28,346 nt of DNA from Amoebophrya sp. A120. Lineage: Eukaryota; Protista; Dinoflagellata. The position numbers were made by a program, and so were the translations under genes. Under the pieces are notes generated by a model. The model saw nothing but the letters and a program-made list of their open reading frames with translations. It did no database searches and was not told where the DNA came from. Of the stretch, positions 1,464-28,346 are shown piece by piece. Location: NCBI GenBank assembly GCA_905178155.1, contig CAJINV010000004.1, positions 9,270,765-9,299,110 on the forward strand, written 5' to 3'. The number at the start of each line of letters is the position of its first letter. The stretch's first letter is position 1.

Positions 1464-4400
1464 ATGAGCGCGAGCCGCACCTCTACCCAGCCCCAGCCCC
1501 TGGGGATGGGTGACAAGAAGGCCGCCGGCGAGCTTGGGTCGGGCCACGTGCTCTTTTATGCAATGCAAAAGTATCGTACTAGTATAAATTGCATTACAAA
1601 TTCCCCCAGCATTACAAATTGAATTTGTGATGCTGATTTACTTTGAGAAGGAGATTTGTAATGCATAAATGCAATTACTACGAGTACGATACTTTTGCAC
1701 AGGATATCTTTGCGGGGAACACGAAACTCGCCTCCGCGAGCAATATCAAATGTAAAAATGTCTGGATGTCTGGAAGAATGCAACTTGTGATGCTGAATTT
1801 GGATTCCAAAAAAATCTGTATTGCGTGAGCAGCAAAGGGAGTGCAATTTTTGCTGCGCGGAGAGGGCATTTGTCATGCGGAATAGGCATCGCGAGGCCCT
1901 CAAAAAATCTGTGATGTTAGGGCATGCATCACAGACATCATGGCCCAGGCAAAACATGCATGACAAGTCTCAGAATCTTCCAGACCCAGACATTTTTACA
2001 CTTGATAAGCAAGCGGAAGATGCAAATAGCGGACACGGAGGAAAACGCGACGAAGTTAGAGGCGAGTCTGAACAGCCTTGAGTCGATTGAAGAGCAAAAA
2101 GCCACCGCACAGGGCGCTCTGTCCCAGAAAATGCTGCAAGCACTCGCCTCCTCCACCCCAGAATCGGATTTGCAGGTGGACGAGAAGACGCAGCGAGTCT
2201 CTCTGTCGAAAGCAGGCATGCTCGTGGATGCGGGGGAGAACTTCACGAAAAGCCTGTTACCTCCCGCTTGGTGCGAGGAATGGGAGCTGAATTTGCCGGA
2301 TTACCCGAGAATAGACTTCCCGCAGAAAAAGACGGATAAGTGGTCTCTGGACACGCTCCTCGCGATGGTGCAGCACTTCAAAACCAATCCGGCGCAACCC
2401 TTGCATCCATTGCTGATCATGCGATTGCTGAACGACGCGGAGATTGTGATGAGCAAAAAGTACCACCACGCAATACACCGGGCCACGATTCCGAAGAAAT
2501 CCATGGAACAGAAAGCGACGGACGACAACAAGGAGGGGTTGCTCAAAGGAGGTATTTGGGATATTAAGTTCCTGATGTGATTATAATTTTCGATTTAATG
2601 CTGTGGGAAGCATTTTGATTTTTCATCTAGGCTGAATTTGATAAAACAACACAAAATTCTTGACAACTGCATGTGTGTGACACATTTCTTCTTGATTGCA
2701 CCATAAAACTCGACGACAAAAACAGATTTGAGCCAATTCTCGCTCCTGAACAAGAAAGCCGTGGCCACCCCTGGGCGAACCATCGTCGTCGGCGACACCC
2801 ATGGGCAATTAGAAGACGTGCTTTGGATCTTCTACAAAAACGGGCTGCCAAGTCCCAGCAACGCATACCTATTCAACGGCGATATCGCCGACCGTGGATT
2901 CTACGCGACCGAGATTTTCTCCATGGTACTGGGGTTCATGCTGCTGTATCCGAATTGTGTGGACATGAACCGGGGAAACCACGAGGATGAAACGATCAAT
3001 TTAGACCCCCACTGCGGCGGGTTTTATGAGGAAAACATCCAGAAATACGGCGGGAACATTGGATCCACGATCTACGAATCGTACTTAAAGATCTACTCAA
3101 ACCTACCGCTGGCGAGCGTTTTGGAGAAACGGGTTTTTATCGTACATGGAGGTTTATCGCGGGTAACGGAGGGCATGCTGAAAGTGCTGAGTGGCATTGA
3201 CCATCACGTCTCCAGCACCCCCGAATCCCCGGATAACACGGCGGATACGGTGTTTATCGACGCCATGTGGTCAGATCCAATGGAAGGGAAAGGTATAGAG
3301 ACAGTGATTCTACTGTGATTGAATCTGTTTTCAGCTAGTAAAAATTCGACTTGTTCGCATGTGCGTGTGAAAACGATCTGCATCTGTAATTACCTGTCTA
3401 AAGTACTACCTCGTCGATGCGCGAAGTTTAGGAACTTCGTATGATTTAGATTTTCATTTGAAGTACCCATAACCACGCAGGTATCGTACCATCGAATCGG
3501 GGCCCTAGTCTCGTTCAATTCGGCCCGGACGTCACCATGAAGTTTCTGCGGCAAAACGGCTTCCACTTAGTCGTCCGGTCCCACCAGCCACCGTCCAACA
3601 AGGACGGCGTCTTTTTCCACCACGACGGGAGGCTGATAACGGTTTTCTCTGCTAGTAACTACTGCGGCTGGTACGGAAACACAGGTGCGGTTCTGATCTT
3701 CTCCCCAGGGAAGGGAGATACGAAAGCGGCGTCGTTACCGACGATCGAGATTGTCCGTCATTTTTCCCCCACGTTCGATATGCTCGCAAATGCGGAAATC
3801 ACAACGAATGATTTGTTGGCGATGGACCAGATGCAAGCGAGAGCAAAAAACGCAACCAGCATGGAGCACGCCGCGATCAAAAATAGTCGGCAGTCGCTGT
3901 CGCAGAGAATGGACAAGCTCATCTTCGAAGTAAAAACAAGGTTCGCAAGGATTCTAGTGGATAACAAGCAGGGCTTGTGGAAATTCTGGCTCACGCACGA
4001 GAAAGAGGTATGCAGCTTTTTATCACATTTGAGTTGTTTTTTATGCACTTAGCATGCTTGCTGCAAGAAAATCATCAAGAACAAACTATATAGCTCCACT
4101 ACTTCTGTGGACATCGTAGTAAATACGCGACGCATCCTCGCACAAATTTCTTGACTCGATGTCATAGAAGAAAACTACGAACCATACAATTCATCTACGT
4201 TCGAAAAATCAAAAACCAAAACCACAGGGCGACTACAATGATAACCGAAGTAAGAGCGCGCCGCCGGGGCTGATTACCTTTGACGCCTGGAAGGAGGGGA
4301 TTTCGTCTATGGTTGGGACGAACGGATCCGTTTTGGGCGGCATCCCGTGGCAGCAAATCAAGGAGATCCTTTCTATCGAGGACCCCCACACGAAACTCAT

Positions 4401-6244
4401 CGACTACCCACTGTCGCTCCATCGGTTCCGGGTTGTTATTCGGGACGAGATCAAATCCGAGACGCAAATTCAGGACGTGCGGAAATCGGTCACGACGCAA
4501 TCATCCCTTTTCCCCAAGAAAACGGTGGATGCATCCGGGAACGTGATGCGCCACACGAACTGGATGGAGTCCATTCTGGCAAGATTGTTCGAGATATGCA
4601 TTGCAAATATGTGGTCTGCCTCTGGAAGGATGCAACTTGTGATGCTAAATCCGAATCATGCAAAAATCTGTGTTGCATGAGTCCCAAAAGCTGACTCTTT
4701 TCGACCGAGTTCTTGCAAGGGAGTTTCTCATGCAGGATAGGCATTTCAGAGACCTCACAGAGTCTGTCATGCTAGGTTCCGCATCATGGAAAACCTGCAT
4801 CACAAGTTTGCACTCTTCCAGACCCAGACACTTTTGCACCTGATACGAGACACTGTTGCTAGAAAACGTCCCTTGGCAGGACTTAGTCAAGCGGTTCGCG
4901 GCCCCCGGGTCCGCGCCCGCGTCGGCGGAGAGCGACGACGACGACATTCCGGAAATTGACATGGACACGTTGCAGAAAGTGCTTTGTAGCCTGCAGAAAC
5001 CAGGAAGCTCGGGGAGTAAGACAAACGCCCTGATAACCAAGGAACAAGCCGGGTCGCTCATAAGAACACTGACGGGGTACGGGGGAAGCAGGGTAATATT
5101 AAAGTCACTCCTTTGATAACATCACAATGACCTTGAATATCACGACTACGGAATGGAAAACGTCGTGACTTTTCTTTGCCTTCTTTGCCAGCACACAGTC
5201 CAAAAACGAATTCTTTGCGCTTGTTCTACTTCTGGTGTTGTACTTGTTCTACCTAGTGGTCTATATGTTCCTCGCATCAGAAATTCAAATTTACATTGCG
5301 AAAAAAAACCTACACAAAAAAAACTCCTATCACAGCATTCCGTGACCAACCTGAAGCCCTCCTCCATTTCCCTGCTCGAGTTCCTCTCCCGCCTAGAGGT
5401 CTGCTACACCGGGTATAACGTGCAACGCGTCAGGCAGAAGGTCGAGGCCGGGATCAAAGAGGGCCCGGACGCAGAACAGTCCATCATGAATTTAAAGTTC
5501 GGCACCTCCGTCGTGGCAACTTCCCTGCGTTTAATTGGCCAGGAGATCTACGCGGAGTCCGAAGATTCCCGGTCCGCGAGCAAGAGAACGCACAAAATTT
5601 TCCAAGAAGCGGACAAGGACCAGGACGGGTTGTTGAGTAAGGCAGAATTTCTCGACGTGGTGGACCAATTACTGGCCCGGTTTAAAGATTTTTTGCAGGA
5701 ACATTTTCTATCCAGCAAATCCAAATACGCAACCTCCGGGGCGAAGAAGGCGGCAAAGTCGGATTTACCCTTGTCCCTCCTCGAAGATATCTTCAAAGTG
5801 GTCGACGTAACGCGACAGGGGAAAGTTAGCTATCTCGAATTCCTCCACTGCTTCCAGCCCTCCGACCGGTCCGACGACACCGTCGGGCTGTCGAAGCTGG
5901 ACGCGGATTCTTCGATTCCGCACTTGCGGCACCCGGCGGAGGAGATCCGGGTGGCGTTGATGGAGCAGATCTGCGGATTTCTGTACACGAACAAACAGGC
6001 GCTGCACAAAATCTTTCTCTTCTTCGACAAAAATAACTCCCACCTGATCGAGAAAAAGAACTTCGTGAAGGCGGTGAAGTGTCTCAACGTGACCATCAGT
6101 CTGAAAGCGCCACCGTTGACCAACGACCAGATCGAGATGCTCGCGGACCATTGTGTCCTGAACACCGAGGAACAGATAGACTACCTCCAGTTTCTGAACG
6201 CGCTGGTGATCTGTGACATGCGGACCGGGGAGATGTTTGACTAG
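1464..6244 (+). CDS. PPEF: Ser/Thr protein phosphatase with EF-hands (PPEF/RdgC-like), paralog 1, ~1091 aa, 8 exons
   Basis: Manual join 1464-1556,1712-1743,2013-2551,2726-3292,3481-4007,4228-4594,4851-5092,5336-6244 (3276 nt, frame continuous, colinear with paralog 2). PPP motifs: [37 protein letters not shown]. The IFYKNGLPS motif is typical of PPEF. EF-hand-like loops: DKDQDGLLSKAE, DVTRQGKVSYLE. GT-AG introns at 2552-2725, 3293-3480, 4008-4227, 5093-5335, plus three TIR-type introns. Start codon inferred from homology (ELGSGHVLF vs QLGAGQVLF). Junctions within the 5-bp repeats can slide. Confidence 0.88.
1557..1706 (+). mobile_element. Introner/MITE-like non-canonical intron, TIR family B, 150 bp
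   Basis: Left end TATGCAATGCAAAAGTATCGTACT; right end (reverse complement) TATCCTGTGCAAAAGTATCGTACT. Direct repeat TCTTT at 1552-1556 and 1707-1711. Removal gives HVLF|AGNTKLASAS, matching paralog 2 [14 protein letters not shown]. Confidence 0.92.
1744..2007 (+). mobile_element. Introner, TIR family A, 264 bp
   Basis: Ends TATCAAATGTAAAAATGTCTGGATGTCTGGAAGA and rc TATCAAGTGTAAAAATGTCTGGGTCTGGAAGA. Direct repeat AGCAA at 1739-1743 and 2008-2012. Removal gives ASKRKMQI (paralog 2: ASKRKAQI). Confidence 0.93.
4595..4845 (+). mobile_element. Introner, TIR family A (asymmetric ends), 251 bp
   Basis: Left TATGCATTGCAAATATGTGGTCTGCCTCTGGAAG; right rc TATCAGGTGCAAAAGTGTCTGGGTCTGGAAG. Direct repeat CGAGA at 4590-4594 and 4846-4850. 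Removal gives [12 protein letters not shown] (paralog 2: [12 protein letters not shown]). Confidence 0.92.
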
Positions 6245-7908
6245 GGTCGTGACAGGTGGGAAACGGAACTTATTTGTTGCTGTGGAGGTTCTCCTCCCAG
6301 CGCACTTCTAAATTAGTGTCAGACCGCTCGTCGCCTAGTACGACCTAGGGTAGACCTAGTCTTAAGCTTGAGTTTTTACAATTTTTATATACGCAAGTTT
6401 CGCGTGCTCCTGGCAGCACGGGGCTTCTATTGTTTCTGAGTTTTTTTTGTCATAGTCATAGATTACATCACACAAGCCCAAGCAGCCACCTTGCTGGGTA
6501 GGTCATTAGTTCACAATCATCAGCTTTATGCAACCATTGTATTGTTCACCACGTATCGGAAACAAACAGTTACTTTTCCTGCGGTAGGAGGTAGGTACTA
6601 GCCGCGTTTTTTTATAGATGCAACGTATGTATTGGCGACTTTTACAGGTACGTGTAATAGAGGTGGCTAATTACAGAGTTTCAGTACCTGGTTGCTGTTT
6701 GAAAAGCATCATTATGCACATACATTTTTAGACGTAGGCTGTTGATGTGTACTAGCTTTTCCATCACCGAACGTTCTTCACATGATTTTTGGCCCTTGCG
6801 GCGACCCAACGCAACGAAAAATGTTCGGATCTTGATCAAGACTTTTACACGGAGGCGGACCTACAGTCATTTTTCCTGGTGCTTCTTATTTCAGAAAAAT
6901 CGAAAACAGACCTACTGCTGTTGCAAGAGGAATGCCGCTTTTACTTTTTCTCCTCGCCGCACTGATCATGCCTGCGAGAAAGAAGAAACTGAGGAAATTG
7001 CCTATGATTCTTACTGTCGGTAGATCATCAAAAGGACAAAATTCCCTGTGAAGATTATCACTGTCGGTACCGTCTCTTTAAATCTGCATTGCTTTTGCTG
7101 CTCTGGTTGAATATTGTATTTCTTTCTCTAGCTAAACCTCCAACTCCCGTCGGTCTAAGCTCCACCCGCTGGTCATGCCGGCATTCTGTGAAGATCGGTA
7201 TTGCCTGATGCGCACTAAGTGTCGTGAAGGTCGTTTTCTTCCACAAATTTTGGATTTGTTGTGTCATGTTTCCTGCTTGCTGCACTTGGCTTGCTGTAGT
7301 CGGTTTAAATGCTTAAGAACTCGGCAAAGCGCTTCGTCTGTAGGTACTCGTGGCTTTGATATTCGTGCAAGGTTGAATGCTTCTCGCCGTCTTCGTCAAG
7401 ATGAAAAATAGAACGTCAGTATGTTCGTCCACTGCTTGCTCGTCCTACTTTCCATTTTTGTGTATTTGCTTACCTGCTTCAACAATGTGATGCTCTTCGT
7501 CTGCTTCTGTTTATCGACAAGATAGAAGCCATTTTTCATTGTACCTCGAACGACACTAAAACAGGACCTCAATTTGATGAGCCCCATCAAAACTAGATTG
7601 CTCAACTGAGATTTACTTCATCCAAGAAAACATTTTTACCTGAATTAGAACTCCCCCCCAAAAATTGTGGTCTTCATTAGTCCAGAACAGAATCTTCATG
7701 CCCGAGGTGTGGTCAGCTGGCAGCTAGCACCTGTTGGCGTGGAGCGTGCCTGTAGAAGGTTGTGCAAAAGTTGTGCTCGTCGCTCCTCCGGGGGCGGTCA
7801 GTCGGAGTGAACTTGAATTTCCATAAATTCGCGCACAATAAGAAACTAAGCCAGAACCATAATTCCTACGAACCAGTGTAGAACAAGAGACCACAAATAT
7901 CTCAAAAG

Positions 7909-10900
7909 ATGAGCACGGCCAAACCGCTTCTTACCCGCGCGAACAGCGGTTCCGGGCAAACGCTCGCCCGCGGCAAATCCAGCGGGCTTTCCGCCCCCAA
8001 GGGGCTGGATATGGAGCAGCTCGGGGCCGGCCAGGTACTGTTTCAGGGGAACAGCAAGCTCCAGTCGGCTTCCAAGAGGAAAGCGCAGATTCACGACACC
8101 GAGGAAAACGCCACGAAGTTGGAGCAGTCGCTGAACTCCTTAGAGTCCATTGAGGAGCAGAAGGCCACCGCACAGGGAGCCCTGTCCGCGAAGATGCTAC
8201 AGGCGCTGGCGTCTTCCACCGCGGACAATGATCTCCATTTGGATTCCCAAACCGCAAGGGTTTCCCTCACAAAATCCGGAACCGTGCCCGGTGGTAGCGG
8301 GGAGAACTTCTCCAAATCGCTACTCCCAGCCGCTTGGTGCGAGGAGTGGGAGTCAAATCTGCCCGATTACCCCAGAATAGACTTCCCCCAGAAAAAATCC
8401 GACAAGTGGACCATCGACACGATGCTGGCGATGGTGAAACACTTCCAGACGAACGCGGCGCAACCCTTGCACCCTTTGCTCATCATGCGATTATTGCACG
8501 ACGTGGAGATCGTGATGAGCAAAAAGTACCACCACGCCATTCACCGGGCGACCATTCCGAAGAAGTCCATGGAGCAGAAAGCAGCGGAGGAGAACAAAGA
8601 TAATTTGTTGAAGGGCGATTTAACGCAGTTTTCCTTATTGAACAAAAAAGCGGTCTCCACCCCGGGGAGAACCATCGTCGTCGGCGACACGCACGGGCAG
8701 TTGGAGGATGTGTTGTGGATTTTCTACAAGAACGGGCTACCAAGTCCGAGCAATGCGTATTTATTCAACGGGGACATCGCGGACCGCGGATTTTACGCCA
8801 CCGAGATTTTCGCGATGGTGTTCGGCTTCATGATTATGTACCCGAATTCGGTGGACATGAACCGCGGGAATCACGTATCCTGAGTAAAAACGTCCCCATC
8901 CCAGAGTTGTCATGCAGATTTGCGATTACAGGAAGATTTGTAATGCGCATCTCCTTGAGATGCATTTCTAATCGTGTTTTGGCATTTGTAATGCTGTAAA
9001 CAGGATTAGGGAACGGCTTTCTCATGCGGCTTTACTTGCTAGCCAGCCCTACACTGCATATGGAAGCTTGTCATGCAGAACTCCCCAAGCTGGGGGATTT
9101 GTGTTGCAGACTTTCCATCTGCACTATGGTGTGGGGAGGTTTTTACAGAGGATATCACGAGGACGAAACGATCAACTTAGACCCGCATTGTGGCGGGTTT
9201 TATGAGGAAAACATCCAGAAGTACGGGGGGAATATCGGCTCCACAATTTATGAGTCCTATCTAAAGGTGTACTCAAACTTACCGTTGGCGTCCGTGTTGG
9301 AGAAGCGAGTTTTCATCGTGCACGGTGGCTTATCGAGGGTAACGGACGGAATGCTGAAGGTGCTCAGCGGCATCGACCACCACGTGTCTTCCATCCCCGA
9401 ATCACCAGATAACACGGCGGACACGGTGTTTATCGACGCCATGTGGTCAGACCCAATGGAGGGGAAAGGTATGTGTTACTTTTTTTTTTTATGATGAAGA
9501 AGACTCTGACACTGACTCTGCTACTGCTTGGATTAGAAATTTTCTACGAAATAACTCGATGAACCTGTTGGAGGCAGGTGAACTCGATCTACTGTCGCAA
9601 GCAGTGATCTAGTAGGGCGCTATCTTTCATCAACATCTGTATGAGATTTATCTTGCATGAAGACGACCTTGTCCTTGACTTCACCTCGATCACACGACAG
9701 GTATTGTGCCCTCGAATCGCGGCCCCAGTCTCGTCCAATTCGGCCCGGATGTCACCATGAAATTCCTTCGCCAAAACGGCTTCCACTTAGTCGTCCGGTC
9801 CCACCAGCCTCCGCCCAACAAGGACGGCGTGTTTTTCCACCACGACGGGAGGCTGATAACGGTTTTCTCGGCTAGTAACTACTGCGGCTGGTACGGCAAC
9901 ACCGGCGCGGTTTTGATCTTCTCACCAGGAAAGGGGGATACCAAAGCGAGCAGTCTCCCGACTATTGAGATAGTCCGGCATTTCTCGCCGACCTTCGATA
10001 TGCTGCAAAACGCGGAAATCACGACCAACGACTTGCTCGCGATGGACCAGGTAGCCAACCGCGCGAAGAACGCAACCAATATGGAACACGCGGCCATCAA
10101 AAACAGCAGGCAAGATCTGACCCAAAGGATGGACAAGTTGATCTTCGAAGTGAAAACGAGGTTTGCGCGAATTCTAGTGGACAACAAACAGGCTTTATGG
10201 AAATTCTGGCTCGCGCACGAGAAGGACGTACTGAATTGTTTTTTCGTTTAGAAGACGATTATGATGTGAATCCTGAGAGATTAGTAGATCCATAGCAAAG
10301 AAAAAAGCACTACAGGCGTTGATGCAGTGCTGTGTTTTAGCTTTGGAAGGTGGATAAGCATAAGTATGGTGGTAGACGCAGACGTAGTGTAGCTTCTACG
10401 ATAAGATCTACTTTATCTGGCTCATATTGCCCATTAGCAATAGAAATTTAGCAAAAGTTTCCATTTCAATTCTTCACAACAGGGCGACTACCTCACCCCG
10501 GCCACGAAGAACACTCCGCCTGGATTGATTACTTTCGACGCCTGGAAAGAGGGTATTTCCAGTATGGTGGGGTCCTGCGGCTCGGTGCTGCAGGGCATCC
10601 CGTGGTCCCAGATCAAAGACATTTTGAATATCGAGGACCCGCACACGAAGCTGATCGACTACCCTTTGTCCCTCCACCGGTTCCGAGTGGTGATTCGGGA
10701 TGAAATTCAGGCGGAATCCGCCCTGCAGGACGTGCGGAAATCTTTAGCCATGCAGTCGACCTTGTTCCCGAAGAAAACCGTAGACGGGTCCGGCAACGTG
10801 ATGCGACACACCAACTGGATGGAAAGCATTCTTGCGCGGTTGTTTGAATCTTTGCTCCTGGAAAACGTCCCCTGGCAGGATCTAGTGCAGAAATTCGCGC

Positions 10901-12750
10901 CCCCGGGCAGTTTATCAACTGTAAAAATGTCTGGGTCTGGAAGAACGCGCGATCTGTCATGCTGCTTTTCCATGACCCATGAGGTCTGGAATGCAGGACC
11001 TAGCATGACAGATTCTGCGAGACCTTTCGAATGCCTATCCTGCATGAGAAACTCCCTCCCGACTTGGTTAAAACTGGACGACTTTTGGTAATCATGCAAC
11101 ACAGATTTTTGCGTGCTGCAGATTTAGCATGACAAGTTGCAATCTTGATCTTCCAGACCCAGACATTTTTACATTTGATACAGTTCCGCGGCGTCAGGAG
11201 ACTCCAATTTACCCGAGGTGGACATGGGAACGCTGCAGAAGGTGTTGCAAAGTTTGAGCCAGAAGGGGGCGTCCAGGGGCTCTCGGACCAACGCCTTGGT
11301 TACCAAGGAACAGGCCGCGTCGCTTGTCAGAACGCTCACGGGGTACGGCGGAAGCAGGGTATAATTTTGGTGACTTGATGGACTTACTTTTGCGAAAAAA
11401 TGTATGACTGTGATGTATGTTTGATGCGATGGAGTTAGAGATGGAGTTCAGTCACTGTCGCTCTACGTCTGTTGTTGAAACAGAAAAGATAAAGATACAA
11501 AAAAACTACCTTGCAAAAACTATTATTCTAGAACAAATTTTTCATCCTCCTACAACAACCCTCACAGCACTCGGTGACGAACTTGAAGCCCTCCTCCGTT
11601 TCCCTGCTCGAGTTTCTTTCCCGCTTAGAGGTTTGCTACACCGGGTATAACGTGCAACGCGTCCGCCAAAAGGTGGAATCCGGCATCAAGGAGGGTCCGG
11701 ACGCGGAGCAAACCATTATGAATCTGAAGTTTGGCACGTCCATGGTGGCCACCTGTTTGCGGCTGATCGGCCGCGAGATTTACGCCGAGTCCGAAGACAG
11801 CATCTCCGCGTCGAAGAACACTTTTCAAATTTTCAAGGACGGGGACGTGGATAAAGACGGGCTGCTCTCCCGCGCGGAATTTCTGGAAGTCGTGGACCAG
11901 CTGCTGATGACCTACAAAGATTTTCTCAAAGACTACTTCCTGTCCGGAAAATCCAAGTACAACGTGTCCAGCACCGGCGGGCCGGTGAAGCGCGGGGCTA
12001 AATCCGATTTGCCCGTGGCCTTGCTGGAGGACATTTTCAAGGTGGTAGACGTGACCCGGCAGGGCAAAATCTCCTACCTCGAGTTCCTCCACTGTTTCCA
12101 GCCGTCCGACCGCACGGACGACGTCGTGGGGTTAAGGGACAAAAACAAGGAGAAGCAGAGGACGCTGAAACACCTCAAGCACCCCGCGGAGGAGATCCGG
12201 GTGGCGCTGATGGAGCAGATCTGCGGAGTATTATATTCGAACAAGCAGGCGCTGCACAAAACCTTCCTCTTCTTCGACAAAAACAACAGTCGCAGCGTCT
12301 CGAAAGCGACGTTTTGCAAGGCGGTCAAGTGCTTGAACGTGAGCATCAGTCTGAAGTCGCCACCCTTGACGAACGATCAGATCGAGATGCTCGCCGACCA
12401 CTGCGTGCTCAACAGCGACGACGAAATTGACTACCTGGCGTTCTTATCAAATGTAAAAGTGTCTGGGTCTGGAAGAGTGGAACTTGTGATGCGCATTTCA
12501 GAACATACAAAAATCTCTGATGCATAGGCAGCAAAAGCTGCCCACTTTCTGTCACCAAAATGGCGGATTTGTCATGCGGATTCGGCATTGCGGAAGCTTC
12601 TCGAAACCTGTGACGCTAGAGCTTCCATGCCAGACCTTCTGTGTCATGCAGAAACAGCATGACTCTTCCAGACCCAGACACTTTTACATTTGATAGTTCT
12701 TAAACGCGCTCGTGGTGTGTGACATGTACACCGGTGAGATGTTCGACTGA
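7909..12750 (+). CDS. PPEF: Ser/Thr protein phosphatase with EF-hands (PPEF/RdgC-like), paralog 2, ~1110 aa, 7 exons
   Basis: Join 7909-8875,9160-9468,9701-10227,10483-10912,11186-11358,11568-12444,12701-12750 (3333 nt). Same PPP motifs and EF-hand region as paralog 1, ending [14 protein letters not shown] introns 9469-9700, 10228-10482 and 11359-11567 sit at the same positions as in paralog 1. Three TIR-type introns sit at different positions. Confidence 0.9.
8876..9154. mobile_element. Introner, TIR family C, 279 bp, inside the RGNHE catalytic motif
   Basis: Left TATCCTGAGTAAAAACGTCCCCA; right rc TATCCTCTGTAAAAACCTCCCCA. Direct repeat TCACG at 8871-8875 and 9155-9159. Removal restores [12 protein letters not shown], identical to paralog 1. 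Confidence 0.92.
10913..11180 (-). mobile_element. Introner, TIR family A, 268 bp, reverse orientation
   Basis: Ends TATCAACTGTAAAAATGTCTGGGTCTGGAAGA and rc TATCAAATGTAAAAATGTCTGGGTCTGGAAGA. Direct repeat CAGTT at 10908-10912 and 11181-11185. The interior resembles the reverse complement of 4595-4845. Removal gives [18 protein letters not shown]. Confidence 0.93.
12445..12695 (+). mobile_element. Introner, TIR family A, 251 bp, perfect 34-bp TIR
   Basis: TATCAAATGTAAAAGTGTCTGGGTCTGGAAGAGT occurs inverted at both ends. Direct repeat GTTCT at 12440-12444 and 12696-12700. Removal gives [22 protein letters not shown]. Confidence 0.95.
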
Positions 12751-14222: not shown

Positions 14223-17200
14223 ATGTCGACAAAAGCCAAGATTTTTACCCGGACGAGGTCCTTCGATCTCAACACGACCTTGGGGACGAGGAAAAAACCA
14301 CTTTCGGTCCTGCTAATGCCCGCCCTGAAGATGTGGGCACTTCTTTCCTGCCTGGTCGGGACGATGGGACCATCTTCGACGTCATTTATGAATTTTTGCG
14401 TAGTTGCAGCACCATACACATACACGACTTCCTCGTCTCAATTTGTTCAGGGAGGTCCAGCCTCCATCACAATCCTGAATGCTCTGAGCGGAAACAAAAT
14501 CACACACCTTTGCGAATTCGAGTTGAGAAGTTGGCTCCTGCAGGGGAAAACGGTTGGGGACTTGCGGGAGCTCGTTTTGCAATCCGACAAGGAGCGCTGG
14601 GGAAGTAGGAGAAGTCGCGTGTCGCTGGTCGTCGACAACAAAAGGAATGAAGAACGTTACCAGCAGCCCGATGTTGCTTCCTCGTCACATATGACATTTC
14701 TCACCGACGATCGTCTTAAACTTGAGGACCTGGGGCTTTGGCTACAGGCCCACCTTGACACGGAACTGGAACGAGTACAACGGCAAGGGGGGGCTGGTCC
14801 ACGAGCTCGTACGGCTGCGCCGATCACGCCCGCCCTAGTGGCTCCTTACTTTCCACCGCGGCCCTCGTCATCCACGATCTTCCGGTCACCAATGCCCACC
14901 TTGTCGTCCATGAGAATGCAAGAACCCTCGAGCTGCTCAGCAGGAAGTCTTTTTTATCAAGAAGAACCTTCCAGCTGGGCCCCCTCAGCTGCACAGCAGC
15001 ACATTGTGATTCTCGCTGGCTACCAAAAGGGCTCGGTCCCACTGCTTCTGCCCTCCAGGACGATCCCTGGTGGTGGTATGTCCAGCAGAACAAGGGCAAG
15101 TTCCTACGTGGAGGAAGTGCAAACCGGTTGGCGGGTCTTCACCCGGCCACAGTTCCTGGTGCTGAAGCTGGTCGGCGCGTACGCGAACTTGCGGGTCGGG
15201 GTGGAGAACCTGTGGAAGACGAAGGACCACGCGGCCGACCTCTCGTTCGCCCTGGCGCTTGTGCAGAAAGCGGCGGAGCTTGGGGTAGTAGATGTGTCAA
15301 GAACAGGAGCATCTAGGCCATTTAATATCTCGAGGATCCCCACTTCGTCGAGTACAACAGCGGAGGAAAAAATATCACCGTTGAAGGCCGACATGATCAA
15401 GTGCAATGGGGAGCGAAGACGCTGGCGTGAGGAAGTGAGGCGGAAGCTGCAAGGGTTTCTTTCGTACGTTGAACGAGAGTCTGCTCATCTCGAGAGCCAT
15501 CGTTCTGCTTCGCCCGCGCGGCCCCAAACAACGTATGATAATGATTGTGATGTCCGCGGTACTTCTACAGGCCCCCACTTGGCGGGAAGCGAAAGTGCAA
15601 GTGGCGAACATCAAGCGCGTTCTGCCTTAGACGTCGACCACGGAAGTAGCACTACCCGGCGCTCAAGAAGAAGACAGAGAAACAGAAAGCAAAACGCACC
15701 TAAAAATGGTACTGAAGCTGCACTGGAGATGAATAAACGAGACGAAGAGCTGGCTCAGTTGCACGCTCAGGTGCGGCAAGCCCTGAGCAGGGCTGCCAAG
15801 AAGAGTATGCTTTTCAAGGACGAAGAGTACCATCGCCAGTTCCGCGGTTGTACTAACGAAAGTGTTAAAAATGTTTCGCGTTTGTGGCAGGAGTTCACCA
15901 AGCTGATAAACGACTTGCGGGTGCAAAGTGGTAAAAATTGGATCGGCGTGGACCCGCAGACGGAACGGCCGGCGGAAAGCGGATCTGAGGACCGGTCAAC
16001 AGTTTTGCAGCCCTACTACGAGGGACTGCTCAATGGCGAAATGAAAGAGCAAACTACGCTTTTGGACCAAATAAAGACAGAGTTTACGGACGCAAGTTAT
16101 GCGACGTTTGTTGATGAACTTTTGCACGGCACGGAAAAAGACCTGGAATATTTTTACCACGGTCGTGAGCAGTCGTCTTCTTTTTACAGCAAGAACTCCG
16201 CGTTGTCCGCACGAGTAGTAGAAAATGAGGATCTACAGCACGAGCGGGCGAGGAGATCTTCTTCAGACCTTTCTCATGACGGAGATGAAAGCTCCTGCCG
16301 AGGGGCGGCCATAAAGATGATCCCTCCGACCGCCGCGTCGAGTAGTACTAGTACAGCAGCTCTGGTGGGACGACGGACAATACCTACTGCTTCAGGTTCC
16401 CCTCCAGGTCGTGGGTTTTTTTTTACGAAAGAAGCGGTGATTCGCGACGGGTTGCGATTTCTCCTGAAATCTGCCGCCGCGACGAAGAAAATGCGCAGCA
16501 AGCTGAAAAAGTTGTGTGACGAACTCTTTCTCCGGGTAATCCGTCCGACCGTCAGGCGGTGGCTGCCGGGCTTGGAATTGGAGACGCTGCCGCAGGACCT
16601 GAAGCCCATCCCAGACCTCCTGGACCGCCCCCGGAAGTTGTATGCGCGAAGCGGAAACGTACCCAACCTACAACGTCTTCCGTGGCAACTTCAGGAAGCA
16701 CTTCTTGCAGGTGGTCCTGCTCAACCCTTGACGGACGAGCAGCGGCTGCAGCTGCTGCGTGGGATGTTGACGGTGGACCCGCCGCTGAAATATGCCGCAA
16801 ATCACCCGGTGGCAGAGGCCTGGGCTCGCGAGGGCAAAGACGTCAAAGAGTTTTTCGAGATGGATCTCTCCGATAATTTCGAACTGGTCGACCTGAAAGC
16901 GGATTATCAGAGGGACTATTTCTGGGTCATAACAGCTAGATACGGAAAAAATGGTGAAAATATTATTGGCACACCATCAAACGGACGACAATCAAAAGCT
17001 TCTGGCCCGGATGGGCGAGATGAACGAGAAATACGTCATTCGAAGATATTTGAGTTCGAGTACCGATATAAAGCGGGCGTGGGCACGGAGGCAAAATTAG
17101 ATATGTTGAATATCAAACCATATGACAGAAGCAATAGGGCGCTCAGACTCGAAGAGCTTCGGGTCAAGAAGCTCCTTCTGGTGCGGATTATGCGGAACAA

Positions 17201-17684
17201 CTCTAGCAGCAGCGCCACCGTCTTCACAGATGTATCGACAGTAAATTTCCCGTACACGTACAAATGCCGTCTCCGCATGACAAAACTTGGCTTCGATCCT
17301 AGTTTAGCATGACAAGTTTTACGCTCCAAATTGGTGAAATTTGTGTTGCATCTTGTACATGTACGGGAAATTTGTATTGCATAAGATGAAGCAGAAGAGT
17401 ACGAGGAATATGAGCCTGCTGCTCTTTGGACCTGGTCCCGAAGTTTTTCTTTAGGAAACGAGCTGGAGCTGCGGCAAAGCAGCAACGAGCTGCCGGGAGG
17501 GATCACGTTCAAAAAGCTTAAACTCGTAGCCACGGCGGACGTCACCGACGAACCGGGGAAGGTCTCCCCAATGCCCCACAAGGTCATCGACCCGGAGCTT
17601 TACGCGACAGCAGACGACGCGGCTGAGGCGGCGGAAAAAGCCTTAGCGTCAGGCCTCCTGCTGCCGCAATCGCTCCTTTATTAA
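14223..17684 (+). CDS. Hypothetical protein, ~1100 aa, 2 exons; possible N-terminal hydrophobic segment and ubiquitin-like domain
   Basis: 3-kb open frame (ORF 14190-17312; first ATG 14223, alternative ATG 14316). Removing the TIR element 17233-17383 plus one repeat extends the frame (VFTDEAEEYEEYEPAALWTW...LPQSLLY*) to TAA at 17682-17684. Join 14223-17232,17389-17684. No family recognised. Confidence 0.7.
17233..17383. mobile_element. Introner, TIR family D, 151 bp
   Basis: Left TATCGACAGTAAATTTCCCGTACACGTACAA; right rc TATGCAATACAAATTTCCCGTACATGTACAA. Direct repeat AGATG at 17228-17232 and 17384-17388. Contains the stop codon that truncates the ORF (17310-17312). Confidence 0.88.
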
Positions 17685-19527: not shown

Positions 19528-22500
19528 ATGTTGCAGAAGAAGACTAACAGCACCGCATTCCTGTCGCTGAAGAGCAATGCTACGGCTACCTCCACCGACC
19601 CAGAACGTCGCGGCACGACGACCGTGCCAAGCAGTGTTAGCTCCGGCCTGTCCTCGGTCGGCTCGCGGTTTTCCATAGCCAGCAACAAGACCGAAGGAGG
19701 ACATCAAGCGGGCTCTTCTGGGCGAACGTCTTCTGATACAACGGCTGGCGCAGCTGTTGTAGGTGTACAACAGCATCACCATCATCATAGGGACAAGTCC
19801 AATGCTGCCTTGCAGAAGCAGCTTGAGCACTGCCTGCAAATCTTCGAGTCGGTGGAGGAGCAGAAAGCGACGACCCAGTCCGCGCTGAGCGCCAAAATGC
19901 TGCACGCTTTGATGCTCTCGGAGGAGCAGCACGAGCGCGAACGGCGGGCGGGAAAGCACCCGGCATTCGGGTCTCTGCAGAGTAAGGAGCCGGTAGTGCC
20001 ACCACCTGGAGGAGGTGCAGCTCCATCTTCCGGAAGAAGCTCGCCGAGGGGGGGAGTTGTAGTACCTACTACTGGAGTTGTTGTGGGCGCCGGTGGAGAT
20101 CAGAGCGCGGCAACCGCGACAAGTAGCGACCCCGACTTGCCGACAGGTCGTGGTCCCAGACCGAGACCGTCTGCCGCCGAAAACGCAGCGGGATTCGCTT
20201 CCTTTTCTCCGCAGCTCGTCACGGTCCCGGGTTCTCTCGACCCGCACACAGCAGACGAAGACCAACAGCACCGCAACAAGAACAAGGGGGACGAAATTAC
20301 AGGTAGTAAAACATCTTCAGCTACAGGAAGTAGAAATATTACCAGTAGTCCCTCCGCAACTACTACCTCCTCCTCCTATCAGAAGCCTTTAGTATCTGTA
20401 TCCCCACAAGCTGTAAGTAGTAAATCCTCGCCTGCCACCTCGGGCACGACAACCAGCAGTCCCCGGCCCAGCAAAGGAGCCATGACAGCTGCCCGGAGTG
20501 GGTCGTTCCAACAGCAGCGAAGCAAGAAGCAAAGCCTGCGCCATGCGACGTCCTGGTACAACCAGTCACTGTTGCTGAAAAAGGACCACTTTGTCAAGCA
20601 GTGGGAGGAAACTTTTCCGGACTGCCCGAAAATCACCCATCCGCAGCAACAGCCCGGCATGGGTGAGCATTGGTCATTTGTGACGGTCCGGGAGTTGATC
20701 AACCACTTCCAGAAACTCCCGGAGCAACCCTTGCACCCGTATTTTGTCATGCGGCTGCTGTCCGACGCGGAAAGGCTGATGACGAAGAAGCACAACAACG
20801 CGGTCTTCCAGCTCACAGACAAAAGTTTATACTTCTCAGGAAGCGGTACAACTAGAGGTAGTGAAAAGAAAAAGTCAGGGAATAAAGTGGAAACAACAGC
20901 AGGAGCTGCTGCAACTTCTGCAGCAGTTGCACTTGCAGCGGAAGTAAATACTAAAGACATAAAGCAAGAACCTTCCAAGTCCTCCGCCCCGACTTCGCGC
21001 CTGATCATCGTCGGCGACACGCACGGGCAATTGGAGGATGTGTTGTGGATTTTCTACAAAAATGGGCTTCCCTCGGCGGAAAATCAGTACCTTTTTAACG
21101 GGGACATCGCCGACCGCGGGTTTTACTCAATCGAGATTTTTCTGTTGGTGTTTTCGTTGATGCTCATCTTCCCCAACCACGTGCACATCAACCGGGGCAA
21201 CCACGAGGACGCGAACATGAACATGGACCCGCACAGCGGGGGCTTCTACGGGGAGTTGATCGCGAAATACGGGACGCAGCTCGGGCAGTCGATCTACCAC
21301 CAAATGCTACGGAACTACGCGGTGATGCCGCTGGCGACGTTGTTGAAAGAGTCGAAAATTTTCATCGTCCACGGGGGTTTGTCGCGGGTGACGGATAATT
21401 TCCTACAGACCCTCTTAACCTTGGACCGGCAAACCCGGTGCTGCTACGCGATCCCGGATACGCCGAGTCACAGCAATCCGGAAACTTGCTTTTTAGATGC
21501 GATGTGGGCGGACCCGGCGCCGGACGAGGGGGACCGGTCCATCGGAATCTCGCCGTCGAGTCGGGGGCCGCAGCTGATTCAGTTTGGAAAGGATGTGACG
21601 AAAAAGTTTTTGAAGCAATCCGACTGCAAACTCGTGATCCGTTCGCACCAACTGCCCGACAACAACGATGGTGTGCAATTTCACCACGATAGGAGGCTGA
21701 TCACCGTCTTTTCGGCTTCGAATTATTGTGGGATCCACGGGAACCAGGGCGCCATCTTGGTTCTGACCAGGCACGAGGAAGGGGGCCCGCATTTGGAAGT
21801 CGAGCGGCATTTTTCTCCGAGTTTTGAGCAATTGAAAGAGGTGGATTTCTTCGCCAGTTATGGAGAAACATATGGAAATGCCATGGGAGCAGGAGCCGCA
21901 GCTAGTGCTCGTGATTCAAAAAGAGCAGGAATTACGAAAAGCTTGGTTCCGCAGGGGACCATTGGACGAATTGCGGTGGAGGACCGAGGAGCAGGAAGGG
22001 CGGACACATCTGAAGAACTACAGGTAGTTGACGAGGAGGAGGGGGACCAAAATAAAAATACCAAAAAATCTCCTGCTGCGGCATCGGCTTCTGCTCCGGA
22101 AAAATTGCTATCCTCTTCCCCGCGCACCTCCGCTCTGGAAATGGAAAAGAAGGCGATGGCCAAACTGCGTAGCGGCGCTCTAGGTCGCCTCCGGAAGAAA
22201 AAGCTCACCTACGAGGTGAAAACCCGGTTTTCCAGGATCCTGGTGGAAAACAAGCAAGCGCTCTGGAAATACTGGCTCGCGATCGAGCATCAAGGGCAGC
22301 AACAGCAGCAGCAGCATGGAGGACCACGACGAACTTCCACCAGTGACTTGTCTGACCGTTCGAGTGACAGTATCCGGAACTCAAGTAGGCCCAGAAAATC
22401 TAACACACCCGACGGAATGATCACGCAGCAGAGTTGGTCCGACGGAATCGTCTCGATCGCCGGTGCGCCGGATATGAAGGAGCTGCCCTGGGGAAAGCTG

Positions 22501-25500
22501 GTCTCGGAAGTGCTGGGGATCGAGGACGAGCATTCGCATCTGATCGACTACTATTTCACGTTGCACAGATTCCGGGTGGTAATTAAAGAGGAACTAGAAG
22601 CGGAGCACGGCAGACGGATCCAGGGTCGGAACAACAGGGGGAATAAAAGAAGTGTGGTCTTTGCAGAAGGAGAGGCTGGCGCAGCAACATCTTCAGAGCA
22701 GTACAAGAAGATGTTGAACACAAAATCTTCGAAGTCCTTCGACCCTCGCGGCACCATAGAGCTCATGGAGGTTGATAGTCTTATTTCTGGGTCTGATCCG
22801 GTGGGTCCTGCTGCTGGTGACAGCACGCAGCTATTAACGAATCGTCGAGCAATCATAGCTCAATCCACGACCTCCACAGGCGGAACTACACCAGCGCGCC
22901 AGCTTCCCGCTGCTGAAGGCGAACTTCCAGCTCTATCTCGGGGCGTTTCGGAAGATGATACGGCAACCAACATAGAAATAATTCCTCCCAAGATGAACGT
23001 TCTCGACCCTACTGGCGCGGCGGGCGGGAACGTCGACCTGCGATCCAGGTTAAACGCTTTCGACACCATCCAGGACAAACGTGTTATGGCAACGAATGTC
23101 ACGTTAAAGAAGAGATCTACCGAGGACTTGGAGCGCAGCCGCAGGCTTAGCAGCGACGCGACAGCTATAATTTCCGGCACGGCTGCAGCGGTCGTGCTGA
23201 AGGACGTCGATAGTATTATTCAAAATGCCACAGACCACGCTCCTCCCGAGAACAACGATAATGAAACCAACTACAACATCGGGGCGCTTTCTCTAGAAGC
23301 TCTGGAAGAGAAAGCTGGAGCTGCAGTACTAGGTCGCAAAACTGTGCCACAGAACCCCGCGCACGACGAGGCACAAAAGAGACCGGTCTTTCAGCAAACC
23401 TCGTCCAATTGGATGGAGGGGATTCTGGCGAACATTTTTGAGAAGCTGTTGCGGACGGAGGTCCCCTGGATGGACTTGGTAGAACGGATGAACATCAAAA
23501 AAGAATCCAGCAATGCGTCTGCTGTTGGTGCTGGAAATAAAATTAAAGCGGAAGTGAACAATAAGACCGAAGATGGAAGCAGCGCAAAAAATAACCCCGA
23601 CGTTGAACAGCAAAACGAAAGCGAGACCCAAGCCGATAGACGCACCAAATTTGCCGAGCTGATGGAAGAGCCATTGGATGTGAAGGTTTTTGAAAAGATT
23701 CTGATGTCTTTTAACGACCTTTTCGCGGACTACAGTGAAGACAATTCGACTTCCACTACTTCTAGGAGGTCCAGATCGAGCGAATATCAACTGCAAAAGT
23801 GTCCTCTGGGTCTGGAAGATTGCCAGGTTTGTCATGCAGGTTTTCTATGGCTCATAACGTTTAGAATGCAGGAGCACCTAGCATGACAAAGTCTGTGAGA
23901 CCTCTATCATGTCCGTCCTTCATGAGAAATTCCCCCTCAGCTTGGTAAAAAAGGACGGCTGTTGGTAATCACGCAACACAGATTTTCTGCATGATGCAGA
24001 TTTAGGTTTAGCATTACAAGTTGTGACCTTCCAGACCTAGACATATTTGCATTTCATAGCGAGACGCTGCTGACGAAAGACCAGGCGGCGAGTTTGATCC
24101 GCACGTTGACAGGCTACGGGTCTTACAATGCAGCTCCGAGTAAAGTAGAGCAACAGCAAGAACAAGATGGCACTGGTACAACTAAAACTACGGCTCCTAA
24201 TAAAACCTCCGGCAATATCAAGAAGGGTAGTACCAAAGGAAAAGGCAAGCAACTACTGTCTCTCGCCGAATTCCTTTCCCGGTTGGACATTTGTTACATA
24301 TCCTGTGCAAAAGTATCGTACGCGTATAAATGCAAGTCTTGCATTACAAATATTTTTCTTTGAGGTAAATCAGCATGACAAATTTTATTTCTCATGCTGA
24401 GGAAATTTGTAATGCATTTATACGACTACGATACTTTTGCAATGCATATTACACGGGGTACAGCAATCGTGTGCGACAGAACCAAAGACTTAGGGAGCAA
24501 TCGGACGAGGGGAATACTATCAATGTCAACAATGTCAACGCGGCATTAATCCGGGCCAGTAGCAACGAGAGCAGCGAGGAGAGTGAGTCGACACCCGATA
24601 ATGTTTTTGCGAAGAAAAAGACCAGCACGACCGAGCGGACGTCGACCCAGTCCACACAATCTGTTGACCGCTTTGATTTCAACAAGTACGGCAGTACGAC
24701 GGTCGCGATCTGTTTGCGGATGATTGGCCGAGATATCGGGAATAAGACGTTTGAACTCTTCAAGAACGCGGACAAGGATCAATCCGGAATGCTGACCGAG
24801 AAGGAGTTTTTCGCGGTCACAGAACAGTTGTTACTCCCGCACGCGGAGTATCTGCAACAGTACTTTTTGTCGGATAAAAAATTTAACTCGTCCACCTCGC
24901 CGGGCAACAAGAACACCTTCGCCCCGATGCCGCGCACAACTACTTCAGATGGAACAACAGCAGGTATTGGTACAACCAATGCCGCAAATAAGATTCCGGA
25001 TTCCCTTCTCCGGGAAATTTTCAAGACGGTCGATTTTAACAAAACGGGAAAAATCAGCTATTTGGAGTTTCTCCATTGCTTCCAAGACCCAGACGGCGAC
25101 TTCGGGTTTGAAAAGGTGACAAACGAGAATGTTGACAGCAGTGTTACTAACACAGCCAATGTCAAGCACGACGAGTTCCGCATCGCCTTGATGGAGCAGA
25201 TTTGCGGGGTGCTCTACACGAACAAACAGGCGCTACTCCGTATGGATGTGTCAGGATCGAAATCGTCAAAGTTGAAATAGTTTGCCATGCATAATAAAAC
25301 CGATACCAGTCAGAAGCCCACGTATCAAGCGGCGCATGACAAATTTTGGCACCGTCTAAATCCAATTTGTCATGCTGTTTAGGGACAGAGGGCGTCCTTT
25401 GTCATGTTGCTTTAGCAGCTGTGTCGCAGACTCCAAACAGGCTGACAGTCGGCCTCACTTGCCATCCCTGCAAGAGAAGCACTTCATGCCTTGGAGTTTA

Positions 25501-26390: not shown

Positions 26391-26468
26391 TATGGATTGC
26401 AAAAGTGTCTGGGTCTGGAACAAGATTGTCACTTGTCGTGCTATTAAATACAAATCATGCAAGGAATC
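26391..26468 (+). mobile_element. Truncated family-A element end in apparently intergenic DNA
   Basis: TATGGATTGCAAAAGTGTCTGGGTCTGGAACAAGATTGTCACTTGTCGTGCTA matches the family-A terminus and subterminal sequence. No partner TIR was seen downstream. The right boundary is approximate. Confidence 0.7.
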
Positions 26469-27057: not shown

Positions 27058-27146
27058 ATACATACATACATACATACATACATACATACATACATACATA
27101 CATACATACATACATACATACATACATACATACATACATACATACA
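27058..27146. repeat. (ATAC)n microsatellite, ~22 units
   Basis: Perfect ATAC tandem run. Confidence 0.97.
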
Positions 27147-28298: not shown

Positions 28299-28346
28299 TA
28301 CATACATACAGACATACAGACATACAGACATACAGACATACAGACA
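28297..28346. repeat. (CATA)n then (CATACAGA)n microsatellite
   Basis: CATA x3, then alternating CAGA/CATA to the window end. Confidence 0.93.

What the first reader, a model, noticed from the sequence alone, without database searches (positions are those of the whole stretch)
1557..24448. The same element family acts as an intron in both orientations
Seen: family B copies at 1557-1706 and 24299-24448 are both exactly 150 bp and are inverted relative to each other in plus-strand genes. Family A has three copies in one orientation (1744, 4595, 12445) and two in the other (10913, 23785). Established: spliceosomal signals (branch point, 3' AG) are strand-specific. Inference: removal depends on symmetric features (TIR hairpin, bidirectional motifs), or it happens at the DNA level.
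Basis: seen in the sequence. Interest (0 to 1): 0.7.

Follow-up and report, generated by a model that had tools for sequence, protein, structure and literature searches.

The report
Two-way transposon introns in marine parasite
In a parasitic marine dinoflagellate, small mobile-type DNA inserts sit inside protein genes facing either way about equally often and are cleanly missing from the RNA without the usual intron signals, likely because a cutting machinery reads their two matching ends; the inserts are already described, but their two-way use seems unreported.

Summary
B copies 1557-1706 and 24299-24448 are 150 bp and inverted, and family A has three copies one way and two the other, all in plus-strand genes. 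The window is Amoebophrya sp. A120, and these are its published introner elements. All 11 intact elements read 5-bp duplication|TAT...ATA|5-bp duplication. None can be drawn as GT-AG. Removing each with one duplication copy restores four reading frames. RNA-like contigs lack elements of both orientations, while DNA-like contigs keep them, which argues against IES-like DNA excision. In a second assembly, families split evenly (A 53:52, B 14:13), and both orientations restore the frame (20 of 21 each). The duplicated target shows no splice-site bias. One imperfect duplication places the 5' cut at least one base outside the TAT. A shared 11-nt internal motif recurs 31-33 nt apart, which suggests DNA-level transposase binding. 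Best reading: removal from pre-mRNA by a strand-symmetric, end-measuring machinery, more likely than not separate from normal spliceosomal recognition. A test for selection on RNA pairing was null. The element class is known; the symmetry and the cut constraint were not found in print.

The parts
1557..1706 (.). Element B1 (150 nt), flanked by TCTTT duplication, in gene g1; inverted to B2 and F
   Evidence: its own letters are absent from RNA-like run X3 at 1629 and 1642 (indirect)
1744..2007 (.). Element A1 (264 nt), AGCAA duplication, gene g1; reference orientation of family A
   Evidence: X3 record 9 starts at 2008 and runs on upstream, own letters absent at 1841, 1855, 1898 (indirect)
4595..4845 (.). 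Element A2 (251 nt), CGAGA duplication, gene g1; same orientation as A1
   Evidence: X3 record 10 stops at 4589 with 247 nt left, equal to 4846-5092 (by arithmetic)
8876..9154 (.). Element C (279 nt), TCACG duplication, gene g2, inside the GNHE phosphatase motif
   Evidence: X3 record 12 stops at 8869 and runs on 416 nt (indirect)
10913..11180 (.). Element A3 (268 nt), CAGTT duplication, gene g2; inverted to A1
   Evidence: X3 record 13 leaves 177 nt between 10907 and 11567, equal to 11181-11357 (by arithmetic)
12445..12695 (.). Element A4 (251 nt), GTTCT duplication, gene g2; same orientation as A1
   Evidence: the same X3 record 13 stops at 12439 and runs on 679 nt (indirect)
17233..17383 (.). 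Element F (151 nt), AGATG duplication, gene g3; B-like, co-oriented with B2
   Evidence: removal restores the frame; no RNA joint seen
23785..24058 (.). Element A5 (274 nt), imperfect duplication GCGAA/GCGAG, gene g4; inverted to A1
   Evidence: RNA joint 23778 to 24058, 279 nt skipped, in X3 and X4, 0 in X2; the right copy's fifth base is kept
24299..24448 (.). Element B2 (150 nt), TTACA duplication, gene g4; inverted to B1
   Evidence: X3 record 13 and X4 record 15 join 24293 to 24449, 155 nt skipped
25241..25551 (.). Element D (311 nt), CTCCG duplication, gene g4
   Evidence: X4 record 15 joins 25233 to 25550, 316 nt skipped
25600..25921 (.). Element E (322 nt), TTACG duplication, gene g4
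   Evidence: X4 record 15 joins 25593 to 25921, 327 nt skipped
1464..6244 (+). Host gene g1, metallophosphatase with EF hands, 1091 aa, four GT-AG introns
   Evidence: model identical to P0004
7909..12750 (+). Host gene g2, paralogue of g1 (83% identical), 1110 aa, three GT-AG introns
14223..17684 (+). Host gene g3, 1101 aa, no Pfam match in the first 1001 aa
19528..26118 (+). Host gene g4, third phosphatase paralogue, 1837 aa, no GT-AG intron
   Evidence: model identical to P0001

Best explanation
These are small elements built like non-autonomous DNA transposons (TAT...ATA ends, 5-bp target duplication) that sit in exons in either orientation and are missing from RNA together with exactly one duplication copy, likely because an RNA-level machinery reads the two symmetric ends and cuts at set distances from them. 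Shown: anatomy, both orientations, even split, absence from RNA-like contigs, presence in DNA-like contigs, no GT-AG and no junction bias. Inferred: they spread by a transposase that binds the internal 11-nt motif array on DNA. Inferred: the ends are brought together in the transcript by the predicted terminal stem or by an end-binding protein. Inferred and least certain: cutting and joining use a pathway separate from normal U2-type splice-site recognition, as proposed for Euglena nonconventional introns. The 5' cut lies 1 to 5 bases upstream of the TAT (one site, A5).
For: 0 of 11 window elements can be drawn as GT..AG or GC..AG at any equivalent cut. In 191 strand-called copies from a second assembly, GT-AG is drawable in 9 on the sense strand and 8 on the antisense control. 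The five duplicated bases match flank composition (chi-square p 0.05-0.74). 5' and 3' ends do not differ at any of 20 positions (p at least 0.42). Orientation splits: A 53:52, B 14:13, C 9:6; reference-free clusters 39:39, 23:21, 16:13, 8:6. Flank frames scored apart fit removal with one duplication copy in 45 of 47 copies, 20 of 21 in each orientation. One RNA-like contig lacks A5, B2, D and E. One lacks A3 and stops short of A4, which are opposite in orientation. All 22 element strands fold end to end (z -3.6 to -14.6); the 7 GT-AG introns on their sense strand do not. The motif nearest the sense 3' end points one way in family A (85 of 87) and the other way in family B (23 of 24), so it is not a shared strand-specific RNA signal. 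U1 snRNA was not detected in A120 (PMC7789003, section 10).
Against: The terminal stems show no excess of G-U over A-C on the transcribed strand (176 vs 155, p 0.27), so selection on RNA pairing is not seen; the stems may be a by-product of DNA inverted repeats. RNA evidence is contigs from one sample (X3, X4), which the tool only guesses to be RNA. No intermediate (lariat, circle, cut precursor) was observed. The joints for B1, A1, A4 and C are indirect, and F has none. Nearly all spliceosomal proteins and U2, U4, U5, U6 are present in A120, so a spliceosomal route stays open. End invariance at positions 1-4, 9 and 11-13 in the second assembly is partly forced by my detection pattern. The E family was 1:6.
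Confidence: 0.55

Rival explanations
1. A modified spliceosome without U1 does the chemistry. An adaptor bound to the symmetric ends or stem positions it, so junction sequence no longer matters. The TAT would mimic bases +2 to +4 of this organism's GTAT donor if the cut is one base upstream.
For: Spliceosomal proteins and U2, U4, U5, U6 are found in A120, U1 is not (PMC7789003). Four of the 7 GT-AG introns in g1 and g2 that I placed begin GTAT-A or GTAT-G, one GTAT-T, and two begin GTAA or GTAC. The A5 joint allows a cut one base upstream of TAT. Tunicate non-canonical introns are reported as spliceosomal (PMC11282704, section 6).
Against: G is not enriched before the 5' TAT (58 of 191, expected 56.6), and AG is not enriched at any duplication position (8-16, expected 14.7). 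No 5'/3' asymmetry was found, and no strand-specific internal signal is shared by families A and B.
Confidence: 0.33
2. Removal happens on DNA: IES-like excision, or skipping on the template, in a life stage that was not sequenced, so that transcripts never contain the element.
For: The features are strand-symmetric. The internal motif recurs at 31-33 nt, about three turns of B-DNA. The A5 joint also allows the geometry of reversed integration (cut 5 bases upstream of TAT, end at ATA). The wobble test is null. MITE-derived IESs exist in ciliates (10.1101/2022.05.02.489906, passages).
Against: DNA-like runs X1 and X2 run from flank into element at flank depth (22-36 and 36-52), and X2 has no contig at the A5 joint. 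RNA-like runs hold element ends joined to foreign flanks while silent stretches have zero depth (X3 7165-7555 and 17688-19075), so element-bearing RNA exists at some loci (inference). Amoebophrya has no separate germline nucleus (recalled), so lasting excision would erase the elements.
Confidence: 0.06
3. The RNA junctions are reverse-transcriptase jumps across hairpins between short direct repeats. The elements stay in mRNA and the ribosome hops them, since a 5-nt repeat always holds one full in-frame codon.
For: A strong hairpin, direct repeats and non-canonical ends are the recalled signature of such artefacts. All RNA evidence here is cDNA-based or of unknown library type.
Against: The elements' own letters are absent from X3 at many diagnostic positions while the genes have contig depths of 121-323; jumps should leave fragments with one arm only. 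Of 18 duplication mismatches that fall inside the full codon, 11 change the amino acid (my hand tally), which breaks a matched hop. Retention gives a premature stop in 10 of 11 cases.
Confidence: 0.03

Closest known systems
Introner elements (IEs) among the non-canonical introns of Amoebophrya sp. A120 (PMC7789003; abstract, sections 10-12, 16, 20, 32, passages and supplement text seen, figures not seen)
   Same: Same organism. Ends begin TAT, then seven variable bases, then AAA. Direct repeats at the borders, non-GT-AG ends, repeated families, predicted hairpin.
   Different: No different kind of element. The paper gives repeats of 3-5 nt; here they are 5 nt in 178 of 234 copies. It uses 'orientation' only for genes. 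The string GCATGAC is not in its supplement text, and the sections I read give no internal motif or cut position.
Introner-like elements of Polarella glacialis and Aureococcus anophagefferens (10.1101/2020.10.14.339549, passages; the Aureococcus paper itself was not held)
   Same: DNA transposons with target duplications that create introns, several classes in either orientation.
   Different: They use GT/GC/GA...AG sites carried by the element or taken from sequence-biased duplications, and classes 6, 8 and 10 are said to favour one orientation. Here there are no such sites, no target bias and no orientation bias.
Nonconventional introns of Euglena (PMC12501133, passages and Discussion; PMC11282704, section 6)
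   Same: Inverted ends, frequent direct repeats, no GT-AG, coexistence with normal introns, proposed MITE origin and proposed non-spliceosomal removal.
   Different: The Euglena signature (N3CDG...CH'GN5-6|R) is tested genetically and includes an exon purine. Here the ends are TAT...ATA with a fixed 5-bp duplication and no exon bias. Circular products are reported in Euglena and untested here.
MITE-derived IESs (MITIES) of Blepharisma (10.1101/2022.05.02.489906, passages)
   Same: Short inverted-repeat elements removed with one copy of a flanking direct repeat.
   Different: Those are cut from DNA during macronuclear development. Here DNA-like contigs keep the elements, and the flanking repeat is any 5-mer.

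Membership tests
Amoebophrya A120 introner elements | Host is Amoebophrya sp. A120 | tested here: met
   Models g4 and g1 are identical to P0001 and P0004, which the source labels Amoebophrya sp. A120
Amoebophrya A120 introner elements | Inverted ends starting TAT, seven variable bases, then at least three A | tested here: met
   TAT in 22 of 22 ends; A at positions 11-13 in 20, 20 and 22 of 22; element D departs
Amoebophrya A120 introner elements | Direct repeat of 3-5 nt at the borders | tested here: met
   5 nt in 11 of 11 window copies, one with a mismatch; perfect in 178 of 234 copies found without demanding it
Amoebophrya A120 introner elements | Non-canonical ends, removed in RNA | tested here: met
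   0 of 11 GT-AG or GC-AG; direct joints for 4, indirect support for 6, none for F
Amoebophrya A120 introner elements | Repeated in the genome | tested here: met
   5 A and 3 B-like copies in the window; summed contig depth over elements is hundreds to thousands of times flank depth in X1 (not a copy number)
Spliceosomal (U2-type) introners | GT/GC/GA...AG ends carried by the element or taken from the duplication | tested here: not met
   GT-AG drawable in 9 of 191 (antisense control 8); G[TCA]-AG in 19 (control 13)
Spliceosomal (U2-type) introners | Excision through a branched lariat | not testable with these tools
   No raw reads of this strain were laid; X10 gave only 21 partial reads
MITE (non-autonomous TIR DNA transposon) | Short, terminal inverted repeats, fixed-length target duplication, no coding capacity, unique sites | tested here: met
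   150-322 nt; 5-bp duplication; none of 10 sites is shared among three paralogues; the 5 copies over 380 nt hold no frame over 150 aa
MITE (non-autonomous TIR DNA transposon) | Cognate autonomous transposase, superfamily assignment | not testable with these tools
   No genome held. PMC7789003 found no transposase in A120; PMC12130899 reports one A120 TIR family with LTR-element-like frames
Ciliate-type IES | Absent from a somatic DNA copy | tested here: not met
   X1 and X2 contigs hold the filled sites at flank depth; X2 has 0 at the A5 joint; rare or stage-specific empty sites are not excluded
Euglena-type nonconventional intron | Terminal pairing required for splicing; circular product | tested here: inconclusive
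   Stems predicted on both strands; wobble test null; circles not testable

The most novel reading that the evidence does not exclude
Amoebophrya A120 has a second intron-removal system that ignores junction sequence and strand. A protein, possibly a domesticated transposase or integrase, recognises the TAT...ATA ends of about 30,000 transposons (count from PMC7789003) and reverses their 5-bp staggered insertion on the transcript. Any insertion, either way round and at any site, is then silent.
Probability: 0.25. Interest if true: 0.9.

Novelty: already known. Interest (0 to 1): 0.45.

Why it matters
How Amoebophrya removes tens of thousands of non-GT-AG introns with no U1 snRNA detected is an open question. 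This work narrows it. Removal is blind to orientation and to junction sequence, needs nothing from the exon, and takes exactly one 5-bp duplication copy. It also gives a cheap handle: about one copy in seven has a one-base mismatch between its duplications (32 of 234), so existing RNA-seq can map the true cut sites genome-wide. A removal system that ignores sequence would explain how a transposon can fill exons at little cost, and might be a new RNA cut-and-join activity.

Tried and rejected
No whole genome is held for this window, so the genome-wide count was replaced by 149 loci from one metagenome scan. The viral collection had no match. Run X6 covers F's right end and intergenic DNA in one contig, so it may hold DNA; it shows no element joint. 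My first gene models had wrong start or stop coordinates for g1-g3 and were redone. A strand-blind open-frame test did not discriminate (134 of 175 for the right removal against 114-118 for out-of-frame removals, and flat for the 'opposite' group); it was replaced by the flank-phase test. A nearest-neighbour count among 35 unassigned copies looked skewed (21 same, 6 opposite, 8 unclear), but clustering gave 5:3 and 11:8. Codon analysis of 29 mismatched duplications gave no stop codons and could not place the cut. The idea that the internal motif is a branch site was rejected because its direction near the 3' end is opposite in families A and B. Rfam found nothing at gathering score. Earlier scan notes had nothing on this genome or on the A3 sequence.
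Full report
Observation. B1 (1557-1706) and B2 (24299-24448) are both 150 nt. They align at 83.7% on opposite strands (E 1e-36) against 63.9% on the same strand. With the inverted ends trimmed off, the scores are 76 inverted against 4 co-oriented. Family A copies at 1744, 4595 and 12445 face one way, and those at 10913 and 23785 the other, in all 10 pairwise comparisons of interiors. A scan for the shared anatomy gave 12 hits, 10 of them real elements, against 0-2 hits in each of 10 shuffles. With A2, found by BLAST, the window holds 11 intact elements. Each reads 5-bp repeat, TAT...ATA, same 5-bp repeat; only A5 has a mismatch in its repeat.

Host and genes. All 11 elements lie in coding sequence of four plus-strand genes. 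Coding sequence is 60% of the non-element window, so the naive chance is 0.004, but decayed intergenic copies would be missed. Removing each element with one repeat copy, plus seven GT-AG introns, gives open frames of 1091, 1110, 1101 and 1837 aa. Retention gives a premature stop in 10 of 11 cases; A4, near the end of g2, replaces the last residues. Removing an element but keeping both repeats breaks the frame in all 11. Three of the genes are paralogous metallophosphatases, with EF hands found in the two whose later exons I scanned. None of their 10 element sites is shared, whereas g1 and g2 share three GT-AG intron positions. The g4 and g1 models are identical to P0001 and P0004, which the source labels Amoebophrya sp. 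A120. The public annotation therefore already treats these elements as introns, so that match is not independent evidence of splicing.

RNA and DNA. I laid contigs of five runs and raw reads of one, out of 12 listed. X3 and X4 come from one sample. The tool only guesses that they are RNA, but X3 skips GT-AG introns and both have no depth on silent stretches. One X4 contig of 6038 nt joins across A5, B2, D and E, skipping 279, 155, 316 and 327 nt, each the element plus 5; X3 agrees. In one search the joint table was swamped by other copies, so the evidence there is by arithmetic. X3 record 13 leaves 177 nt between 10907 and 11567, exactly 11181-11357, and stops at 12439, just before A4's repeat. 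One contig therefore lacks A3 and breaks off before A4, which face opposite ways. Record 10 stops at 4589 with 247 nt left, the length of 4846-5092. For B1 and A1 the element's own letters are absent at diagnostic positions while the gene has depth 212. F has no RNA joint, because g3 is not covered by X3 or X4. The DNA-like runs X1 and X2 cover introns and intergenic DNA evenly and run from flank into element at flank depth; X2 has no contig at the A5 joint. Contigs drop rare forms, so rare or stage-specific empty sites are not excluded.

Cut position. With a perfect repeat the cut cannot be placed. A5's copies differ at the fifth base, and the RNA contigs keep the right-hand base (joint 23778 to 24058, five letters ambiguous, no other letters). 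The 5' cut therefore lies upstream of the TAT, within the left repeat or at its edge, and not flush with the TAT. This is one site in one sample.

A larger sample. No genome is held. A scan of the metagenome collection for the family-A end gave 149 loci, 370 kb. The longest element matches to the window are 67-87% identical, and the matches fall at the window's elements, not its exons. Detected by inverted ends alone, 178 of 234 candidates have a perfect 5-nt repeat and 32 have one mismatch; 2 have a 4-nt repeat and none a 6-nt one. Coding strand was predicted with a Markov model, with no RNA for these loci; calls within a locus agree in 158 pairs and disagree in 2. Of 224 unique elements, 191 got a strand. 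Family A splits 53:52 with respect to the coding strand, B 14:13, C 9:6, D 1:1 and E 1:6. Thirty-eight elements were unassigned, and 30 assigned ones had no strand. Reference-free clusters split 39:39, 23:21, 16:13, 8:6, 6:0, 2:2 and 3:0, with 13 elements in smaller groups. The window's E copy is removed in RNA and faces opposite to the 6. Scoring each flank alone with a model trained only on the window, the frames fit removal with one repeat in 45 of 47 copies, 20 of 21 in each orientation. In that test 122 copies were skipped for weak scores, 9 had flanks on different strands, and the rest lacked flanks.

No splice signals. None of the 11 window elements can be drawn as GT..AG or GC..AG. Among the 191, GT-AG is drawable in 9 on the sense strand and 8 on the antisense control. 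The repeat has flank composition at all five positions, with no excess of G before TAT (58, expected 56.6) or of AG anywhere. The 5' and 3' ends are indistinguishable over 20 positions, though my detection pattern fixes positions 1-4, 9 and 11-13. All 22 element strands in the window fold with the ends paired (z -3.6 to -14.6), unlike the GT-AG introns. Against an RNA-structure signal, G-U pairs do not outnumber A-C mismatches on the transcribed strand (176 vs 155, p 0.27).

An internal motif. GCAWNACARRT (its 8-nt core was scanned) occurs 42 times in 2671 nt of window elements and 6 times in the other 25,675 nt. In the loci, 213 of 224 elements hold two or more copies. The commonest same-direction spacings are 31 (101 pairs), 32 (59), 93 (45), 39 (40) and 33 (33), and spacings of 31-33 appear in all five families. 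Copies within a family are related, so these counts are not independent. The rate outside elements in the loci, 2.9 per kb, is probably inflated by cut or undetected copies. A spacing of 31-32 bp is three turns of B-DNA (established), which suggests transposase binding sites (inference). The motif nearest the sense 3' end points one way in family A (85 of 87) and the other way in family B (23 of 24), so it is not a common branch signal.

Mechanism. The elements most likely spread as non-autonomous DNA transposons that make a 5-bp staggered cut with no target or strand preference. Their survival in exons needs removal that works at any site and either way round. I put RNA-level removal at about 0.9 overall. 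Within that I favour a pathway separate from normal splice-site recognition (0.55) over a U1-less spliceosome guided by an end-binding adaptor (0.33). The reason is that no asymmetric or junction signal remains; the null wobble test and the lack of any observed intermediate keep this modest. DNA-level removal (0.06) and reverse-transcriptase jumps with ribosome hopping (0.03) are unlikely, for the reasons given under rivals.

What is known. PMC7789003 (abstract, sections 10-12, 16, 20 and 32, passages, supplement text; figures not seen) describes these elements in A120: TAT-N7-AAA ends, 3-5 nt direct repeats, 29,850 repeated introns, U1 not detected, mechanism open. Its uses of 'orientation' concern genes. 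PMC12130899 (passages; about 21 of 58 A120 rows of supplement 8; files 13 and 14 not searched) lists A120 families with mixed, often non-canonical ends, and its pipeline required matching orientation. PMC9860276 (passages) allowed opposite orientation but mentions Amoebophrya only in its references. Intron creation in either orientation is in print for Polarella and, by citation, Aureococcus, there with spliceosomal ends (10.1101/2020.10.14.339549, passages); the Aureococcus paper was not held. Euglena nonconventional introns are the closest working analogy (PMC12501133, passages and Discussion; PMC11282704, passages and section 6). Seven searches turned up no report of orientation balance, the internal motif or cut mapping for A120 elements. 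Subscription journals and figure content are outside this library. Two earlier scan notes describe similar hairpin introns in other dinoflagellates; I did not test them.

Verdict. The feature is real and belongs to a known class in a published genome, so it is filed as already known. The added value is a set of constraints on an open mechanism and a direct way to map the cuts. Interest 0.45.

Noticed in passing
window 26391-26470: A lone family-A left end downstream of g4's stop codon, with no partner end or duplication found. An X4 contig reads 26320-26418 straight into it, which fits a need for both ends.
   Followed up: partly
all 11 elements; loci L001-L149: Shared 11-nt motif GCAWNACARRT on both strands, often 31-33 nt apart, across unrelated families; terminal bases 4-14 look like a degenerate copy.
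   Followed up: yes
L014:3863, L021:2146, L058:649 and others: A further family of about 210 nt with A-rich TAT...ATA ends, absent from the window; a 19-member cluster splits 11:8 by orientation.
   Followed up: partly
window 19528-26118: Paralogue g4 has no GT-AG intron and long low-complexity insertions, while g1 and g2 share three GT-AG introns. Possibly a retrocopy that later gained four elements.
   Followed up: no
window 14223-17684: Gene g3, 1101 aa, has no Pfam match in its first 1001 aa and is not covered by X3 or X4.
   Followed up: partly
window 1-385: GC-rich tandem array with a 19-nt period.
   Followed up: no
window 27053-27148 and 28297-28346: ATAC and CATACAGA microsatellites around a GC-rich stretch with a 260-codon frame that has no Pfam match.
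   Followed up: no
window 2552-11567: The seven GT-AG introns end in A/C-rich tracts followed by CAG rather than pyrimidine tracts, and five begin GTAT.
   Followed up: no
L043:2815-3445, L069:3292-4263: Family-A-ended stretches of 631 and 972 nt with no frame over 86 aa; possibly nested or mis-paired elements.
   Followed up: no
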